DNA of 16,032 bases from Candidatus Fraserbacteria bacterium (lineage in GTDB: Bacteria; Bipolaricaulota; Bipolaricaulia; RBG-16-55-9). Location of the stretch: positions 1 through 16,032 of the forward strand of contig JBBIOR010000031.1 in assembly GCA_037443265.1 (NCBI GenBank). The letters run 5' to 3'. Numbering within the stretch: position 1 is the stretch's first letter; each line of letters starts with the position of its first letter. The translations under genes were made by a program, and so were the position numbers. Below the pieces are notes generated by a model. That model saw only the letters and a list, made by a program, of their open reading frames with translations. It did no database searches and was not told the DNA's origin. Of the stretch, positions 1 to 4,232 are shown piece after piece.

Positions 1-13
1 ATCCCGGGTGTGA

Positions 14-166
14 TCAGGGTTCGATCACTACCCCTCCGCCACCTCCAGTCAGCCCACCCAGCGCCATCAACCCGGTCCCGACTCCCATGGCCCGAAGCAC
101 CTTTCTACGTGTGAGTCCTCCCCGACCTTCCTTGACCTCTTCGTATGATTCCTTGCCGCAACACAG
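14..166 (-). pseudogene. Internally deleted paralog of the Tat-lipoprotein precursor: signal peptide fused directly to the C-terminal GGGGGVVIEP tail
   Basis: Reads (L)CCGKESYEEVKEGRGGLTRRKVLRAMGVGTGLMALGGLT-GGGGGVVIEP*. The first part matches the N-terminus encoded at 3022-3140 and the end matches the C-terminus at 2286-2318. CTG at 166-164 stands where the full copy has ATG; AGGAGG RBS at 182-177; the lipobox Cys is absent. Confidence 0.8.
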
Positions 167-218
167 TTTTCTTGTACCTCCTTCTTTGGCGAACTTCAAG
201 TCCACCTGTAAGGTAAGG
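48..218. repeat. Direct repeat, copy 2 of 3022-3190 (5' UTR, RBS and Tat signal coding region)
   Basis: 48-166 aligns ungapped with 3022-3140 with 9 mismatches in 119 nt by manual count. Similarity continues through ACTTCAAGTCCACC and TAAGG x2 (209-218). Confidence 0.95.
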
Positions 219-264
219 TGGGGTCGTGACCAAATTCGCTTTATATCAGCTCTTCTAGGAACGA

Positions 265-573
265 TCAGGTTTGCTCCAATCTCTGCATGCGCTTGCTGAG
301 CCACCTTCTTATGATCACTAATAAGGGAATATCCAGCAAGTTAAGAGCGACGAGGATGACCAACATGAGGGCTACCGTGCGCTGTTCGCTGGAGACAGCT
401 AGCAGCATGGCAAGCACTAACGCGATCCAGGCATTGATGAAAGCAAGTGGCTTCCAGCGGAAGAGGGCGAGAGCGAAGAGAAACTCAAGGATGATCCCCA
501 GGGTTAGCAAGGTCACTACTCCTCCCATGGAACTCAAGAAGGCTTCGATAGCTTCTACGATCCCGATTGGCAT
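265..573 (-). CDS. Small membrane protein (about 3 TM helices), candidate immunity protein
   Basis: 102 aa, three hydrophobic stretches and a basic C-terminus (RRWLSKR). Starts 3 nt after the stop of the upstream ORF. The immunity role is inferred from position only. Confidence 0.7.
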   Translation of the reverse strand: MPIGIVEAIEAFLSSMGGVVTLLTLGIILEFLFALALFRWKPLAFINAWIALVLAMLLAVSSEQRTVALMLVILVALNLLDIPLLVIIRRWLSKRMQRLEQT

Positions 574-576
574 GGG

Positions 577-945
577 CTATCTCTTTGCATCTCCTTCCAA
601 GAGGTTCTCCGGCGGAGAGAGCTTCAAGGGTCGGTAGAGCCTCTTAATGAGCACAGCTAGAACCTGTAGGGTGCCAAGAACGATGAGGATAACAGCAACC
701 ACAGGATGGCCGTCCTTAAAGGCCATCATAATGCCAATGGCTAAGCCCAGCCAGGACACGATTAACATCTCCAAGGGATAGAATCTGAGGGAGCGTGCTA
801 TCTTGGGATAACGTGCGATATTTCGAAAGTTCTTGCTCCAATCTATGAGGAAAATACCGCAAAAAGCCGCCACGGCTTGGATGAGGCCTATCCCGAGGAG
901 AAACCATCCATCTACCGAGGAACCCCAAAAACTCGTCAGCTCCAT
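577..945 (-). CDS. Small membrane protein (about 3 TM helices), candidate immunity protein
   Basis: 122 aa with three hydrophobic segments. Its strong RBS (TAGGAGGG) overlaps the TAG stop of the Cys-rich ORF 958-1500, which suggests translational coupling. Confidence 0.75.
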   Translation of the reverse strand: MELTSFWGSSVDGWFLLGIGLIQAVAAFCGIFLIDWSKNFRNIARYPKIARSLRFYPLEMLIVSWLGLAIGIMMAFKDGHPVVAVILIVLGTLQVLAVLIKRLYRPLKLSPPENLLEGDAKR

Positions 946-957
946 CTTGAATCCCTC

Positions 958-1500
958 CTAAGGTGCAGGACAATCAGCGGATGATGGATTGCAAGGTGGT
1001 GGAGGATTCCCTCCAGAATCACTACCCCCAGTACCACATCTGCCACAGGCACGTGCTGTAAAGTACGTCTCCGCCAGCAGGAAAAAGACACCGACCAAAC
1101 ATCCCGCTAATCCTGTAAGGCAAGCCGCACCAGTGCGCCAGGCACCATAGTAATGTCCTGCTGTACCAATCCCACACGCAACGCAGCTCTCTGCGTCTTG
1201 TGCAATGACACCCTGAGAAGAAGCAGTGCTAGGGAACAACTTGCCTGCTTGAACTACAAATTCTTTGTGCTGAATCAAGAGTTGATATAGTCTCTCACCC
1301 AGGGGCAAGAGTGGGGAGTCATCGATGCCCTTAAACAATTCAGCAAGCTGCTGAGCGCTCTGCTCGGAATCCGCACGAGTTACATCAACTTGCCTACCAT
1401 TCCAAGCTACGCTGACGCTATGTGCCGCGATCAATTCAGGATACCTAGTTTCCTCCTCACGATACCATTCAATCGTCCTTGCGGGATTCGGTTTTAGCAT
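958..1500 (-). CDS. Signal-less (probably 5'-truncated) precursor with a C-terminal Cys-rich peptide (tip 3)
   Basis: 180 aa. SSQGVIAQ junction, then a 79-aa tip with 8 Cys (CVAC...C-x6-C...CGRC plus a Gly/Pro tail). No Tat signal and no clear RBS; the ATG overlaps the stop of the orphan tip. Confidence 0.7.
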   Translation of the reverse strand: MLKPNPARTIEWYREEETRYPELIAAHSVSVAWNGRQVDVTRADSEQSAQQLAELFKGIDDSPLLPLGERLYQLLIQHKEFVVQAGKLFPSTASSQGVIAQDAESCVACGIGTAGHYYGAWRTGAACLTGLAGCLVGVFFLLAETYFTARACGRCGTGGSDSGGNPPPPCNPSSADCPAP

Positions 1501-1686
1501 TCATCCACCGCCACCATGATGGCACCAGCAGGGCCCACAACGGCGCCGCCGCAGCCGATACAGGAAACCCTAGTGGGTTCAGCTGCCACACGCTGAGCAG
1601 GCCACGCCAGCTGCGACTCCCGCGGCAACCGCCACCAGAATAGAGCCCAGACATCCCCAGAACCCCTGAGCACTCACGATAGTTTG
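1494..1686 (-). pseudogene. Orphan Cys-rich peptide tip (tip 2): no start codon, 1-nt frameshift
   Basis: Reads QTIVSAQ-GFWGCLGSILVAVAAGVAAGVACSAC. Removing one base at 1586-1587 continues it as AAEPTRVSCIGCGGAVVGPAGAIMVAVDEC* (TAA 1496-1494). The repaired peptide has symmetric Cys spacing and the same CAAxPxxxxC loop as tip 1. Confidence 0.7.
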
Positions 1687-1688
1687 AG

Positions 1689-2252
1689 CTAACGCTCTTC
1701 TTGATTCTTGACAAAACTCTTTACTATGAGACGAGGTGCGTTGAAGCCGTACACGCTCCAGGCAGCTGCCGTCATCGGTGGCAGGACCAAGGCCAAGGCC
1801 GTCTTGAGAAGCGGATCTTTGATGGATGGATACAGCGAGCACGTGAGATTGTTCCCAATGGTGGCACCTGTCCAGCCAAAAAGGTAAGCCAATCCCCAAT
1901 CCCCATAGATACCTTGGCGGATGGTTGTAAGATACACGAGGGTCGGTATGTTGAATACTGGCAAGAATATCTCATGCCTCGGGCGGATCTCATGCAGTAG
2001 GGTGCCTGACTTGCACCAGTCGTCAGGGGTCTCCACGAGAGAATTTAAACGTCCTGTGGCAAGTAGGAACCCAATTCCTGTGACAAAGTCTACCGCGACA
2101 GTAGCGAGCAGCTGCTCTTGTCCTTCAGAAGTGAGCCATATATCCCAAGGCCACCCTGATCCTTCTGCCTCAACTCCCCATAAAGTCGCCATTGTCACCA
2201 TCAAGAAAAGAATCATCATGCAGGATCCCAACTTACTCCTCAAAATTCTCAT
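1689..2252 (-). CDS. Membrane protein with N-terminal signal/TM segment, candidate immunity protein for tip 1
   Basis: 187 aa; basic-hydrophobic N-terminus ending ..VEA, then several hydrophobic segments. AAGGAGGG lies upstream; the gene starts 33 nt downstream of the precursor stop. Confidence 0.75.
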   Translation of the reverse strand: MRILRSKLGSCMMILFLMVTMATLWGVEAEGSGWPWDIWLTSEGQEQLLATVAVDFVTGIGFLLATGRLNSLVETPDDWCKSGTLLHEIRPRHEIFLPVFNIPTLVYLTTIRQGIYGDWGLAYLFGWTGATIGNNLTCSLYPSIKDPLLKTALALVLPPMTAAAWSVYGFNAPRLIVKSFVKNQEER

Positions 2253-2285
2253 GGTGATAGCCTGCCCTCCTTCTTACTTCTTACC

Positions 2286-3140
2286 TCAAGGTTCAATGAC
2301 GACACCACCTCCGCCACCGCATCCACCGCACGCCACACAAGCAGCAAGGCAGACTGCAGCTGCGAATGCTAGAGCAGCCTGACAATCTGATGAATTCGGC
2401 CATGCAGCACATATTATGGCGGCAGTCACCGCTGCAGCGGCACAGATAGCAGCAGCTGTTGAGCAACTGACTTCTTGTGCTTCCACGATACCCTCAGAGC
2501 TTTCTTGCATGCCATCCGCGATTTCCTCGGCTTTGATTCTTAAGAGTTCTTGGCGTACATGCTGCACAAGACCGCCCTCTTTGAGAATGTGCGCTACCGC
2601 TTGTTTCCATCGTTCACTATTGTTAATGATCTGAAATGTGCCTTCAAGAACGCCTTTGAAATGGGATGGAAGTTTGGAGATTTAAAATTCCTCAATAAAT
2701 TGCTTTTGCAATTGATATGCGGCCTCCTTGTCGTAACTATTCCACTGGAGCTTCATATTGAACTCCTGAGATATGCCAACCTTATGTAGTTTATCAAGGG
2801 CTTCTAGTGTCCACTGCTTCGCCGAATTGATTTTGACCTTGATGAGTTTTTTCTGCAAATGGCCATTTCGAGACTGATATGCCCTTGCGAGCGTGTGGAA
2901 TACATCCTTCCACTGATCTTTAGTAGCTTGTAGAAGTTTCACCAGATCAGAGTGATTCCCCTGGGCCAGTAAGGTGCTACGACTATCTTCACCACTTCTG
3001 GCTGTCCAATCGACACATCCCGTCAGCCCACCCAGCGCCATCAACCCGGTCCCGACTCCCATGGCCCTAAGTACCTGCCTTCGTGTGAGTCCTCCCCGAC
3101 CTTCCTTGACCTCTTCGTATGGTTCCTTGCCACAGCACAT
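2286..3140 (-). pseudogene. Tat-exported lipoprotein precursor with C-terminal Cys-rich peptide (tip 1), interrupted by one in-frame TAA
   Basis: ORFs 2682-3140 and 2286-2567 share a frame, and the gap is open apart from TAA at 2684-2682 (..FIEEF*ISKLPSHFKGVLEG..), giving 284 codons. Tat motif TRRQVL, hydrophobic core, lipobox LTGC, junction SSEGIVEAQ, 62-aa Ala-rich tip with 8 Cys. RBS AGGAGG at 3154-3149. Confidence 0.8.
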
Positions 3141-3190
3141 GACTTCTACCTCCTCTGTGGGCAGACTTCAAGTCCACCGGTAAGGTAAGG
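3022..3190. repeat. Direct repeat, copy 1 (matches 48-218)
   Basis: Direct sequence comparison, as described for 48-218. Confidence 0.95.
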
Positions 3191-3215
3191 TAAGGTAAGG
3201 TAAGGTAAGGTAAGG
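3181..3215. repeat. Pentanucleotide microsatellite (TAAGG)7
   Basis: Seven perfect TAAGG units; the paralogous position (209-218) has two. Confidence 0.98.
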
Positions 3216-3241
3216 ATAACACAACTTTAAAGATTTGTCAA
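3213..3241 (-). promoter_or_regulatory. Sigma70-type promoter for the peptide locus
   Basis: TTGACA (3241-3236), 17-nt spacer ending in TGT (extended -10 TG), TATCCT (3218-3213). Confidence 0.75.
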
Positions 3242-3275
3242 GACCCTTAAAAATAGAGACAAGCCCACGCACAAA

Positions 3276-4232
3276 TTAGAGGTCGCGAACGATCTCCGTC
3301 CCCGCCTGTCCCTCTAACGCTTCTTTCGCCTGTTCCAACGACGCAATGATCGCCCGCTCCCCGCCGTTCTCTAAAAACAGAATGGCCGCCTCAATCTTCG
3401 GCCCCATGCTCCCCGGCGGAAATTCTCCAGATTGTAAATGGCGCTTGGCCTCCTCCAGAGTGAGCCTCTCCAGATCTAGCTGCTGCGGCGTTCCATAGCG
3501 AAGAGTCACCCGCTTGACGTCCGTTAAAATCAGAAGCACGTGGGCACCCAACGCGGTAGCCAAGCGCTCGGACGCCAAGTCTTTGTCAATGACGGCCTCA
3601 ACTCCCCGCAGCCGCCCGTTCTCCCGCACCACCGGCACACCCCCTCCCCCACAGGCAATGACCACATGCCCGGCCGCCACCAGCTTGTGAATGACCCTCC
3701 ACTCCACAATCTCGATGGGCCGAGGCGAAGGCACAACTCGACGATAAGCCCGAGGTCCTCTCCCCACTCTTTTGATCACATAGCCCCGGGTCCGCTGCAA
3801 CGGCTCAGCTTCACTTAAAGAATAAAACGGCCCGATGGGTTTCGTAGGCTCCAAAAAGGCGGGATCGCACGCATCGACGACGACTTGAGTGATGACCGTC
3901 ACGACGGGTTTATTAAGCCCTTCTGCCCCGAGGGCCTCTCCCAGCGCCTGCTGGAGCAGATAGCCGATCTGGCCTTGCGTCATCGCTCCACAGACATCCA
4001 AGGGCCAAGGAGGCACAAGCTCTTGGGCCTGCTCCTGTTGGATGAGCAGTTGTCCCACGTGCGGCCCGTTGCCGTGGGTCAGTACCACCCGCGCGCCGCT
4101 CCCCACCAGGCGGGCGATCTGCCGGCACGTTCGGGCGATGGCCGCCCTCTGCTCTTGCTCTCCCCCATGGCCAGACAAGAGGGCGTTGCCTCCCAAAGCG
4201 ATGACAATCGTCTGTGGCCTTCGGCTGTTCAT
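3276..4232 (-). CDS. arcC: Carbamate kinase
   Basis: Motifs VIALGGNAL, THGNGP(H)VG, TQGQIGY, PTKPIGPFY, RRVVPSPRP, GGGGVPV, EAVIDKD and GSMGPKIEAA; 318 aa. Confidence 0.95.
   Translation of the reverse strand: MNSRRPQTIVIALGGNALLSGHGGEQEQRAAIARTCRQIARLVGSGARVVLTHGNGPHVGQLLIQQEQAQELVPPWPLDVCGAMTQGQIGYLLQQALGEALGAEGLNKPVVTVITQVVVDACDPAFLEPTKPIGPFYSLSEAEPLQRTRGYVIKRVGRGPRAYRRVVPSPRPIEIVEWRVIHKLVAAGHVVIACGGGGVPVVRENGRLRGVEAVIDKDLASERLATALGAHVLLILTDVKRVTLRYGTPQQLDLERLTLEEAKRHLQSGEFPPGSMGPKIEAAILFLENGGERAIIASLEQAKEALEGQAGTEIVRDL

What the first reader, a model, noticed from the sequence alone, without database searches (positions are those of the whole stretch)
1198..2500. Shared '..AQ' junction before each tip: putative processing site and recombination point
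Seen: SSEGIVEAQ|EVSC (tip 1), QTIVSAQ|GFWGC (tip 2) and SSQGVIAQ|DAESC (tip 3), with the first Cys 4-5 residues after AQ. The DNA is also similar (GGT ATC GTG GAA GCA CAA / ACT ATC GTG AGT GCT CAG / GGT GTC ATT GCA CAA). The orphan tip 2 fragment begins only a few codons before this motif. Inference: the motif marks where the mature peptide is released and where tips are swapped, analogous to the VENN boundary of CdiA. No protease gene lies in the window.
Basis: partly seen in the sequence, partly recalled or inferred. Interest (0 to 1): 0.7.

Follow-up and report, generated by a model that had tools for sequence, protein, structure and literature searches.

The report
Conserved junction before cysteine-rich toxin tips
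The "AQ" is part of a real, conserved four-residue motif that sits in the short linker between an exported lipoprotein carrier and a cysteine-rich membrane hairpin in a small, undescribed bacteriocin-like gene family of Candidatus Fraserbacteria; it may be a cleavage site, but it is not where the cassettes are swapped.

Summary
All three ..AQ junctions are on the minus strand at the stated codons.

In relatives the motif is longer, [V/I/L]-x-[A/G/S]-Q, and ends 1-7 residues before the first tip cysteine. It occurs in 20 of 41 tip-bearing family members, against 1.1-1.5 expected and a maximum of 6 in 2000 shuffles.

The genes belong to a tiny family: 58 representatives among 1.84 billion proteins, in Ca. 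Fraserbacteria-like genomes. Each has a near-invariant 5' leader with a Tat-type signal and lipobox, then a variable folded domain, a short low-confidence linker ending in V-x-A-Q, and a Cys-stapled two-helix hydrophobic tip. Multi-pass membrane genes follow.

- **Window genes.** Tip 1 belongs to one gene (3140..2289) broken by an in-frame TAA. Tip 2 is a frameshifted orphan. Tip 3 is an orphan that keeps 100 codons upstream of AQ.
- **Swap point.** Homology runs straight through AQ: 60% identity before and 61% after for tip 1, 55% and 47% for tip 3. DNA identity between loci stops at the lipobox Cys codon (window 3015), not at AQ. The swap-point reading is therefore not supported.
- **Cleavage.** A halocin-C8-like maturation cleavage is plausible but untested.

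Verdict: partly supported; a new variant of a known kind.

The parts
3179..3215 (-). (TTACC)n pentanucleotide repeat (GGTAA on the + strand), 7.4 copies, in the conserved 5' leader upstream of the main gene
   Evidence: Tandem Repeats Finder found period 5, 7.4 copies and 100% matches. The copy number ranges from 0 to about 11 among 9 aligned loci.
3015..3140 (-). Conserved N-terminal module MCCGKEPYEE..LTRRQVLRAMGVGTGLMALGGLTGC: twin-arginine signal plus lipobox (L-T-G-C). Its 3' end is the sharp boundary between constant and variable DNA.
   Evidence: PF10518 TAT_signal scores 15.8 bits, below the cut-off. The paralogue P0001 passes TIGR01409 at 17.8 bits against a cut-off of 16.7. blastn homology to 7 other loci ends at 3003-3015.
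2289..3140 (-). Main gene 'A+B' (alpha class, tip 1). It is one reading frame interrupted by a single in-frame TAA at 2684..2682.
   Evidence: Read with X at the stop, it aligns colinearly with the intact 287-aa P0016 over 271 residues (52% identity, E 2e-68). The X is opposite His.
2475..2486 (-). Junction motif V-E-A-Q of tip 1
   Evidence: In the model of the homologue P0016, the equivalent Q225 is at the start of helix 224-249, after a coil at 217-223.
2289..2474 (-). Tip 1: 8-Cys, Ala-rich two-helix hydrophobic hairpin ending in CGGCGGGGGVVIEP
   Evidence: The Cys framework is shared with P0016 and P0034 (61% and 59% identity after Q). Two helices are predicted in the homologue.
1689..2252 (-). 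Gene C: 187-aa multi-pass membrane protein directly after tip 1, a putative cognate immunity or partner protein
   Evidence: ORF list. No Pfam or NCBIfam family. The role is inferred from position only.
1494..1692 (-). Orphan tip 2 (beta class). It reads ..AQTIVSAQ|GFWGC..CSACGS* in one frame and continues as ..AEPTRVSCIGCGG..DEC* in another. It is a frameshifted 3' fragment with no upstream gene body.
   Evidence: Three-frame translation. The 6-Cys pattern matches full-length P0027, P0037 and P0032. Unitig 1502-1680 has depth 29 against 11.8-13.2 for its neighbours, and one contig joins 1690 to 3015.
1666..1677 (-). Junction motif V-S-A-Q of tip 2
958..1500 (-). Gene E: orphan 3' part of a gamma-class gene (tip 3). 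It has 100 codons before Q and then an 8-Cys hairpin with a PPPP tail.
   Evidence: Residues 10-159 align to residues 162-313 of the 338-aa P0005 (53% identity, E 5e-47), without a break at AQ. There is no signal peptide.
1198..1209 (-). Junction motif V-I-A-Q of tip 3
577..945 (-). Gene F: 122-aa membrane protein that follows gamma-class tips
   Evidence: Homologues follow gamma-class genes in G001 (L027) and G008 (L028). One also lies in the syntenic locus L025.
265..573 (-). Gene G: 102-aa membrane protein, always found after F
   Evidence: 46-69% identity to the genes after F in L025, L027 and L028.
14..224 (-). Remnant 'H': a second copy of the 5' leader and signal peptide, with CTG in place of ATG, fused directly to a ..GGGGGVVIEP* tail. 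It lies at the contig start.
   Evidence: Direct repeat of 37-224 with 3011-3196. Alignment A4. tblastn.

Best explanation
**What the genes are.** The three tips belong to a small Ca. Fraserbacteria-type gene family whose products are built in four parts:
1. A nearly invariant 5' leader and twin-arginine signal ending in a lipobox Cys.
2. A variable folded carrier domain, either all-alpha or beta-plus-alpha.
3. A short flexible linker ending in [V/I/L]-x-[A/G/S]-Q.
4. One to seven residues later, a 45-85-residue hydrophobic two-helix hairpin stapled by 6-8 cysteines.

Each gene is followed by small multi-pass membrane genes. The loci also carry truncated orphan copies.

**Most likely working (inferred).** The precursor is exported folded by Tat and lipid-anchored. 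The hairpin is a membrane-active, bacteriocin-like effector, and the downstream membrane proteins protect the producer. The V-x-A-Q motif is the maturation site where a peptidase that prefers small residues cuts. A cut between the small residue and Q would fit the -3/-1 rule and leave an N-terminal Gln that can cyclise. A cut after Q is the alternative. Either would free the hairpin, as in halocin C8.

**Shown versus inferred.**
- Shown: the motif, its conservation, its place in a linker at the domain boundary, the gene architecture, the orphans, and the conserved pairing of tip 3 with F and G.
- Inferred: toxicity, immunity and cleavage.

**Cassette exchange.** Exchange does not use this motif. 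The constant-to-variable switch is at the lipobox codon.
For: **Family.**
- A profile search of 1.84 billion representatives found 58 proteins at E <= 1e-3, 33 at <= 1e-10 and 11 at <= 1e-30.
- The word-index search found 13 of 2684 candidates.
- Apart from weak Tat-signal hits, there are no Pfam or NCBIfam families.

**Motif.**
- It is present in 20 of 41 tip-bearing sequences, against 1.1-1.5 expected.
- Among those 20, position -3 is V in 17. Position -1 is A in 10, G in 7 and S in 3. The Q-to-Cys gap is 4 residues in 10.
- It occurs in all three tip classes.

**Structure.**
- P0005 model: folded domain 60-240 with pLDDT 82-92, segment 247-253 below 50, Q254, then helices 256-283 and 286-306.
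- P0016 model: helical domain, coil 217-223, Q225, then helices 224-249 and 254-273.

**Toxin-cassette context.**
- There are paralogous loci on C7 and C21.
- The syntenic locus in a Ca. Fraserbacteria MAG carries a different main gene, another orphan (P0065), and F and G homologues.
- Gamma-class tips are followed by F-like and G-like genes in 3 genomes.
- PT-HINT (PF07591) is present in 2 distant members, P0055 and P0060, at E 1e-12 and 4e-15.

**Precedent.** Halocin C8 shows Tat export followed by cleavage by an unknown protease (passages). An archaeal precursor is activated by extracellular protease (PMC12893001, abstract).
Against: - No cleavage has been observed. There are no protein or RNA data for these genes.
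- The strict motif is missing in 21 of 41 tip-bearing members. Several of those have only a more distant Q or none, for example P0002, P0030 and P0036.
- In the close pair P0011/P0015 the motif is the most variable spot (RVEGQ versus LVKAH). P0015 belongs to a frameshifted gene, however.
- No peptidase is consistently linked. None lies in the window. A CPBP/Rce1-like gene sits beside one cassette in G001, but only a remnant exists in this genome, and its distribution does not track the family: 19 of 41 relatives against 9 of 41.
- The tips do not match the halocin C8 domain model.
- The linker is short, so the motif could simply cap the first helix.
Confidence: 0.45

Rival explanations
1. The motif is structural and is never cut. 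It is a helix-start or membrane-interface signature. The protein then works intact, held by an N-terminal lipid and a C-terminal hairpin. It could be a doubly anchored surface protein or a contact-dependent effector, with the downstream membrane proteins as partners.
For: - Q lies at or 2 residues before the first residue of tip helix 1 in both models.
- The spacing to the first Cys is narrow, 4 residues in 10 of 20. That would suit a packing or disulfide-geometry role.
- The motif is dispensable in about half of the members.
- No linked peptidase was found.
Against: - The V at -3, a small residue at -1 and an invariant Q form a pattern typical of peptidase sites rather than of helix caps (established knowledge: Ser, Thr, Asp and Asn are the usual N-caps).
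- The motif is kept across three tip classes whose helices are otherwise unalignable.
- The Tat-exported halocin C8 precursor of the same size and layout is cut.
Confidence: 0.3
2. The AQ codons would be the recombination point where tips are exchanged, like VENN in CdiA.
For: - Orphan tip 2 starts about 8 codons before its Q. The stretch shared with a second copy in the source metagenome begins at 1680-1690: unitig 1502-1680 has about 2.2-2.5 times the depth of its neighbours, and one contig joins 1690 to 3015.
- Some distant pairs are more alike after Q than before it, for example P0005/P0010 at 20% versus 42%.
Against: - Homology is continuous across AQ in the tip-1 and tip-3 classes.
- Orphan E keeps 100 codons before Q (about 92 of them aligning) and P0065 keeps 68.
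- Contig break points in three metagenome runs lie at 1479-1488 and 3014-3015.
- One contig aligns only to 1196-1271. By my hand translation of its printed loose ends, it still encodes a homologous gamma protein on both sides, so this is not a swap.
- Junction DNA shares only 7-8 nt, which is chance level.
- blastn finds no locus-to-locus similarity at any AQ.
Confidence: 0.05
3. The three AQ dipeptides are a coincidence of Ala- and Gln-rich composition.
For: AQ alone is a short, common dipeptide. There are 38 other AQs in 6631 background positions of the family.
Against: Observed 10 of 41 for AQ and 20 of 41 for the four-residue motif at the junction, against 1.7 and 1.1-1.5 expected. No shuffle out of 2000 reached these values.
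Confidence: 0.02

Closest known systems
Halocin C8 precursor ProC8 (haloarchaea)
   Same: - It is about 283 aa with a Tat signal, a roughly 200-aa N-terminal part and a 76-aa Cys-rich hydrophobic C-terminal peptide released after export.
- The protease and mechanism are unknown (passages).
- The halocin C8 domain is also used as a tip of polymorphic toxins in a Chloroflexota bacterium (same paper, passages).
   Different: - There is no match to TIGR04449 halocin_C8_dom in the genome or in 12 tip-bearing proteins.
- PF22862 was not hit in Pfam scans at E <= 1.
- Here a lipobox follows the signal.
- In ProC8 the N-terminal part itself is the immunity protein. Here separate membrane genes follow each tip.
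- This family is bacterial and arranged as cassette arrays with orphans.
Polymorphic toxin loci (CdiA-CT with VENN, Rhs, PT-HINT proteins)
   Same: - Several paralogous loci, with truncated orphan 3' modules that carry their own downstream small genes.
- Strain-to-strain replacement at a syntenic site.
- A short conserved motif in front of the variable tip.
- Two distant family members carry PT-HINT.
   Different: - The constant part is only the 5' leader and signal peptide. The whole mature protein is replaced, and the break is at the lipobox.
- No VENN, Rhs or filamentous delivery domain is present.
- Tips are small membrane hairpins, not enzymes.
- Tips are as conserved as the preceding domain, or more so.
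Variable lipoprotein families with a conserved signal-peptide cassette, and repeat-controlled genes (Mycoplasma Vsp/Vlp, Neisseria opa CTCTT repeats; recalled, not tested)
   Same: - A highly conserved 5' region and prolipoprotein signal are joined to variable mature parts.
- A pentanucleotide tandem repeat of variable length lies next to the start codon.
   Different: - The repeat lies upstream of the ATG, not inside the coding region.
- There is no evidence of switching.
- The C-terminal Cys-rich hairpin and the linked membrane genes have no counterpart there.
Cys-stapled helical-hairpin antimicrobial peptides (plant alpha-hairpinins, CXXXC..CXXXC; recalled, not tested)
   Same: Two antiparallel helices carry paired Cys motifs at both ends (CxxC..CxxC or CxxxC..CxxxC), as read.
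   Different: These peptides are unrelated in origin. The tips here are far more hydrophobic, and the disulfide pairing is only inferred.

Membership tests
Halocin C8 family | C-terminal halocin_C8_dom (TIGR04449, cut-off 24 bits) | tested here: not met
   There were 0 matches in the genome at E <= 10. The control rang in Haloferax volcanii. There were no hits in 12 tip-bearing proteins at E <= 10.
Halocin C8 family | N-terminal HalI-like domain (Pfam PF22862, named in the paper read) | tested here: not met
   Pfam scans of the window proteins and 8 family members at E <= 1 list no such family.
Halocin C8 family | Tat signal on the precursor | tested here: inconclusive
   The twin-arginine motif LTRRQVLRAMG is present. 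P0001 passes TIGR01409 at 17.8 bits against 16.7. The window gene and the others stay below the Pfam cut-off, at 13-17.6 bits against 22.7.
Halocin C8 family | Proteolytic release of the C-terminal peptide | not testable with these tools
   This needs protein chemistry.
Polymorphic toxin system | Variable C-terminal module followed at once by a cognate small gene | tested here: met
   Every locus examined has membrane-protein genes directly downstream. Gamma tips are followed by F-like and G-like genes in 3 genomes. Immunity function itself was not tested.
Polymorphic toxin system | Orphan 3' modules downstream of the main gene | tested here: met
   Tip 2 fragment and gene E in the window. P0065 in L025.
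Polymorphic toxin system | Long conserved N-terminal delivery region with the break just before the toxin (for example PT-VENN PF04829) or a releasing domain (PT-HINT) | tested here: not met
   There is no VENN. Only the signal peptide is constant. PT-HINT is present in only 2 of 58 representatives and in none of the window's genes.
Bacterial lipoprotein | Lipobox [LVI][ASTVI][GAS]C at the end of the signal peptide | tested here: met
   L-T-G-C is read directly in the window gene, and the Cys is invariant in 12 of 12 aligned members. Lipidation was not tested.
NCBIfam NF058595 invert_tail | Score over 37 bits | tested here: not met
   Tip 1 scores 18 bits. The model gives such weak hits in 14 of 14 control genomes, so the hit is unspecific.

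The most novel reading that the evidence does not exclude
V-x-[A/G/S]-Q would be the recognition site of a still unidentified maturation peptidase. That peptidase would release disulfide-stapled hairpin bacteriocins, possibly with an N-terminal pyroglutamate, from Tat-exported lipoprotein carriers. This would give the first defined cleavage motif for halocin-C8-style Tat precursors. It would also describe a new cassette system in which only the leader and signal peptide are constant.
Probability: 0.3. Interest if true: 0.65.

Novelty: new variant of a known kind. Interest (0 to 1): 0.5.

Why it matters
If the motif is a cleavage site, it gives a concrete, testable handle on how hydrophobic Cys-rich antimicrobial peptides are released from large Tat-exported precursors. 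For halocin C8 that step is still called unknown in the text read.

It also brings to light a family that Pfam and NCBIfam do not cover, in a candidate phylum without cultured members. The layout is unusual for conflict systems: a constant leader and signal, with the whole mature protein exchangeable.

The value is limited, because the family is tiny and everything beyond the sequence pattern is inference.

Tried and rejected
- **Metagenome locus scans.** Alignment A1 and then P0010 as queries found no confirmed relatives. The genome-contig scan gave only 3 loci, all from one Ca. Fraserbacteria MAG.
- **Fold search.** The P0005 model against the PDB gave 0 matches at E <= 0.001.
- **Protein atlas.** The tip-3 peptide scored at most 0.81, which is noise level.
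- **Complex prediction.** Tip 3 with F and G gave no answer (score 0.02, controls not run).
- **NF058595 invert_tail.** The weak hit is unspecific.
- **CPBP/Rce1-like protease as the processing enzyme.** The gene lies next to one cassette in G001 (PF02517, E 8e-20). This genome holds only a 58-codon remnant, and 19 of 41 relatives have a match against 9 of 41 with the family. There is no specific link.
- **RNA.** No RNA holder was listed among the sequencing runs. There were no Rfam matches in 1-3400 at E <= 1.
- **5' leader fold.** The leader folds so that the last repeats pair with the ribosome-binding site, but no better than shuffles (z 0.64).
- **Literature.** 'lipo-invert' found 0 papers and 'Fraserbacteria' with 'toxin' found 0 papers. 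Mei et al. 2008 (PMC2566001) is not held, so the residues at the ProC8 cleavage site could not be compared.
- **Earlier scan notes.** Nothing was found by sequence or by words.
Full report
**1. Observation**

All features lie on the minus strand.
- Tip 1: ..SSEGIVEAQ|EVSC.., with the Q codon at 2477..2475.
- Tip 2: ..QTIVSAQ|GFWGC.., with Q at 1668..1666.
- Tip 3: ..SSQGVIAQ|DAESC.., with Q at 1200..1198.

The DNA likeness is no more than what shared amino acids give. The longest common runs are 7-8 nt, and runs of 7 nt or more are seen in about 19% (356 of 1886) of random 63-mer pairs from the same region.

**2. What the genes are**

The window is the first 16 kb of contig C31 of a 1.69-Mb, 44-contig MAG that is 88% complete. 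Fraserbacteria. The closest relative with the same genes is indeed titled Ca. Fraserbacteria.

Gene order on the minus strand:

| Gene | Coordinates | Description |
|---|---|---|
| A | 3140..2685 | Signal plus helical domain |
| (stop) | 2684..2682 | One in-frame TAA |
| B | 2681..2289 | Same frame as A, tip 1 |
| C | 2252..1689 | 187 aa, membrane protein |
| Tip 2 fragment | about 1692..1494 | Orphan |
| E | 1500..958 | Tip 3 |
| F | 945..577 | Membrane protein |
| G | 573..265 | Membrane protein |
| H | 166..14 | Second leader and signal copy |

- **A and B are one gene.** Read with X at the stop, A+B aligns colinearly with the intact 287-aa P0016 (52% identity over 271 residues, E 2e-68). 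The gene is broken by a nonsense codon. The contig of the likely source run agrees with that base, which is not independent evidence.
- **E is a 3' fragment.** Residues 10-159 match residues 162-313 of the 338-aa P0005 (53% identity, E 5e-47). E lacks the signal and the first 150 or so residues.
- **Tip 2 is a decayed fragment.** Its 6-Cys pattern (C..CxxC..SCxGC..C) matches full-length P0027, P0037 and P0032, but only if a frameshift between CSAC and AEPTRVSC is crossed.

**3. The family**

- The word-index search with an own-genome paralogue gave 13 of 2684 candidates at E <= 0.01.
- A profile of 12 full-length members, searched against 1.84 billion representatives, gave 58 proteins at E <= 1e-3.
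- With the 42-residue signal as query, 9 of 41 related genomes have a match. The strong matches are in four genomes of one family.
- Paralogues lie on C7 (two) and C21 (one, plus a start at the contig end).
- All full-length members begin MCCGK..RR.V.....G..L..C (11 invariant columns).
- Apart from weak Tat-signal hits, Pfam and NCBIfam find nothing. The exception is PT-HINT (PF07591) in two distant members, P0055 and P0060.
- By Cys pattern and by the preceding domain, three classes stand out. Alpha has a 6-8-Cys hairpin after an all-helical domain with the motif ILKEGG.S.H.R (tip 1). Beta corresponds to tip 2. Gamma has 8 Cys and a proline-rich tail, after a beta-plus-alpha domain (tip 3).

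**4. The motif in relatives**

- In 41 of 66 sequences with a recognisable Cys-chained tip, [VIL]-x-[AGS]-Q ends within 8 residues of the first tip Cys in 20. The expected number is 1.1-1.5, and the maximum of 2000 shuffles is 6.
- [AGS]Q occurs there in 23, and any Q in 24.
- In the 20, V holds position -3 in 17. Position -1 is A in 10, G in 7 and S in 3. The gap from Q to Cys is 4 residues in 10.
- The motif occurs in all three classes. These sequences are kin, so the numbers show conservation, not independent origin. The 41 include the window's own E and B and three own-genome paralogues.
- Against the motif: 21 of 41 lack the strict form. In the near-identical pair P0011/P0015 the motif itself differs (RVEGQ versus LVKAH), with P0015 part of a frameshifted gene.

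**5. Structural place**

- P0005 model (mean pLDDT 70, pTM 0.69): a confident domain at 60-240, a segment at 247-253 with pLDDT below 50, Q254, then helices 256-283 and 286-306.
- P0016 model (mean pLDDT 68.5, pTM 0.64): a helical domain, a coil at 217-223, Q225, then helices 224-249 and 254-273.

The motif therefore ends a short flexible linker and abuts the first helix of a helical hairpin.

**6. Is it the swap point? No.**

1. Identity does not drop after Q.

| Pair | Before Q | After Q |
|---|---|---|
| A+B vs P0016 | 60% | 61% |
| A+B vs P0034 | 36% | 59% |
| E vs P0005 | 55% | 47% |
| P0011 vs P0015 | 70% | 91% |
| P0005 vs P0010 | 20% | 42% |

2. Orphans begin at different distances before Q. 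E keeps 100 codons (about 92 of them aligning), P0065 keeps 68, and tip 2 keeps about 8.
3. blastn between this locus and eight others finds the 5' leader and signal at 67-94% identity. In the seven loci whose match reaches the end of the signal, it ends at window 3003-3015, the lipobox Cys codon; the eighth (L005, 67-73%) stops inside the signal at 3064. It also finds F and G. It finds nothing at any AQ. The leader (84-94% to G001) is more conserved than the flanking pyruvate kinase and carbamate kinase genes (75%).
4. In contigs of three metagenome runs, break points lie at 3014-3015 and at 1479-1488. One contig joins 1690 to 3015, with the letters between not known. Unitig 1502-1680 has depth 29 against 11.8-13.2 for its neighbours, so a second copy of tip 2 exists outside the MAG.
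5. One contig aligns only to 1196-1271, ending one codon after Q. By my hand translation of its printed loose ends, it goes on encoding a homologous gamma protein on both sides (..GERFYQLLL.. and ..DTGSC.NC..). This reflects falling nucleotide identity, not a swap.

**7. Function**

- The syntenic locus of the Ca. Fraserbacteria MAG lies between carbamate kinase and xseA. It holds a different main gene, other membrane genes, another orphan (P0065), and F and G homologues.
- Gamma-class genes are followed by F-like and G-like genes in three genomes.
- Paralogous cassettes, orphans, strain-specific replacement and PT-HINT in distant members together fit a toxin-immunity cassette system. The hairpin would be the membrane-active effector. 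This is inference; nothing was tested.
- Halocin C8 is the nearest described design. It has Tat export, then cleavage by an unknown protease into an N-terminal immunity part and a 76-aa Cys-rich peptide (passages). Sequence membership fails, however.
- V at -3 and a small residue at -1 match the classic -3/-1 preference of type I signal peptidases (established knowledge). A cut before Q would leave a Gln that can cyclise. The site lies N-terminal, not C-terminal, to the hydrophobic helix, which is unusual for that enzyme. I therefore name no protease.

**8. Verdict**

- The processing-site reading is plausible, with my odds at about 0.4-0.5.
- The recombination-point reading is not supported.
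- The family appears undescribed: searches found no papers, and Pfam and NCBIfam have no model for it. Supplements of the papers read were not consulted.

Noticed in passing
window 3179-3215 (and 207-223); L001, L002, L025, L026, L027, L029: A pentanucleotide tandem repeat, (TTACC)n on the coding strand, lies between a conserved TTGACA box and the ribosome-binding site of every family gene. The copy number runs from 0 to about 11 among 9 loci. One metagenome contig carries one extra unit at 207. This could mean repeat-length (phase-variable) control. The repeats can pair with the GGAGG site, but the fold is no better than shuffles (z 0.64).
   Followed up: partly
window 2682-2684: An in-frame TAA splits the tip-1 gene into A (152 aa) and B. 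The intact homologue P0016 has His at this position. The gene is a pseudogene, a strain variant or an error; the contig of the likely source run agrees with the base.
   Followed up: yes
window 14-224 (contig start): A second copy of the leader and signal has CTG in place of ATG and is fused directly to a ..GGGGGVVIEP* tail like that of tip 1, with the whole body deleted. P0040 looks like a similar internal deletion that keeps a GGGGG tail. The glycine-codon runs may be deletion hot spots.
   Followed up: partly
window 3003-3215 versus L025-L027: The 5' leader and signal DNA is 84-94% identical between this genome and the Ca. Fraserbacteria MAG. The adjacent pyruvate kinase and carbamate kinase genes are only 75% identical. 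The homology ends at the lipobox Cys codon. This suggests gene conversion or transfer of the leader, and it is the real constant-to-variable boundary.
   Followed up: yes
G000 C7:38184-38260; L004/L027 (G001:C47): Two family genes in two genomes are frameshifted shortly after the signal peptide, one of them at a GGGG run. With the TAA in the window gene, 3 of the 9 gene starts aligned lead into broken bodies. This could be decay, MAG errors or on/off switching.
   Followed up: no
L027:1975-2892 (G001:C47); G000 C7:36503-36625: A CPBP/Rce1-like intramembrane protease gene (PF02517, E 8e-20) lies directly after a tip-3, F, G cassette in G001. Only a 58-codon remnant lies beside the C7 cassette of this genome. 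Its distribution in relatives does not follow the family.
   Followed up: yes
window 1502-1690: The unitig covering orphan tip 2 has about 2.2-2.5 times the depth of its neighbours in the likely source run. One contig joins 1690 to the end of a signal peptide (3015). A second, probably full-length, gene with the same tip 2 sequence, frameshift site included, therefore exists but is not in the MAG.
   Followed up: partly
P0055, P0060 (database proteins): Two distant family members carry a C-terminal PT-HINT domain after a single hydrophobic helix and a PPGGGGG|C junction. The glycine run resembles the GGGGG tails of tip 1 and its relatives.
   Followed up: no
L025:5412-5741: A HicB-like antitoxin gene (PF15919 and PF21748) lies directly upstream of the main gene in the syntenic G001 locus. 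By eye, and untested, similar toxin-antitoxin fragments lie next to the C7 and C21 loci.
   Followed up: partly
window 3126-3140 and all full-length members: The N-terminus MCCGK is invariant in 12 of 12 aligned members. Two cysteines at positions 2-3 of a Tat signal are unexplained.
   Followed up: no
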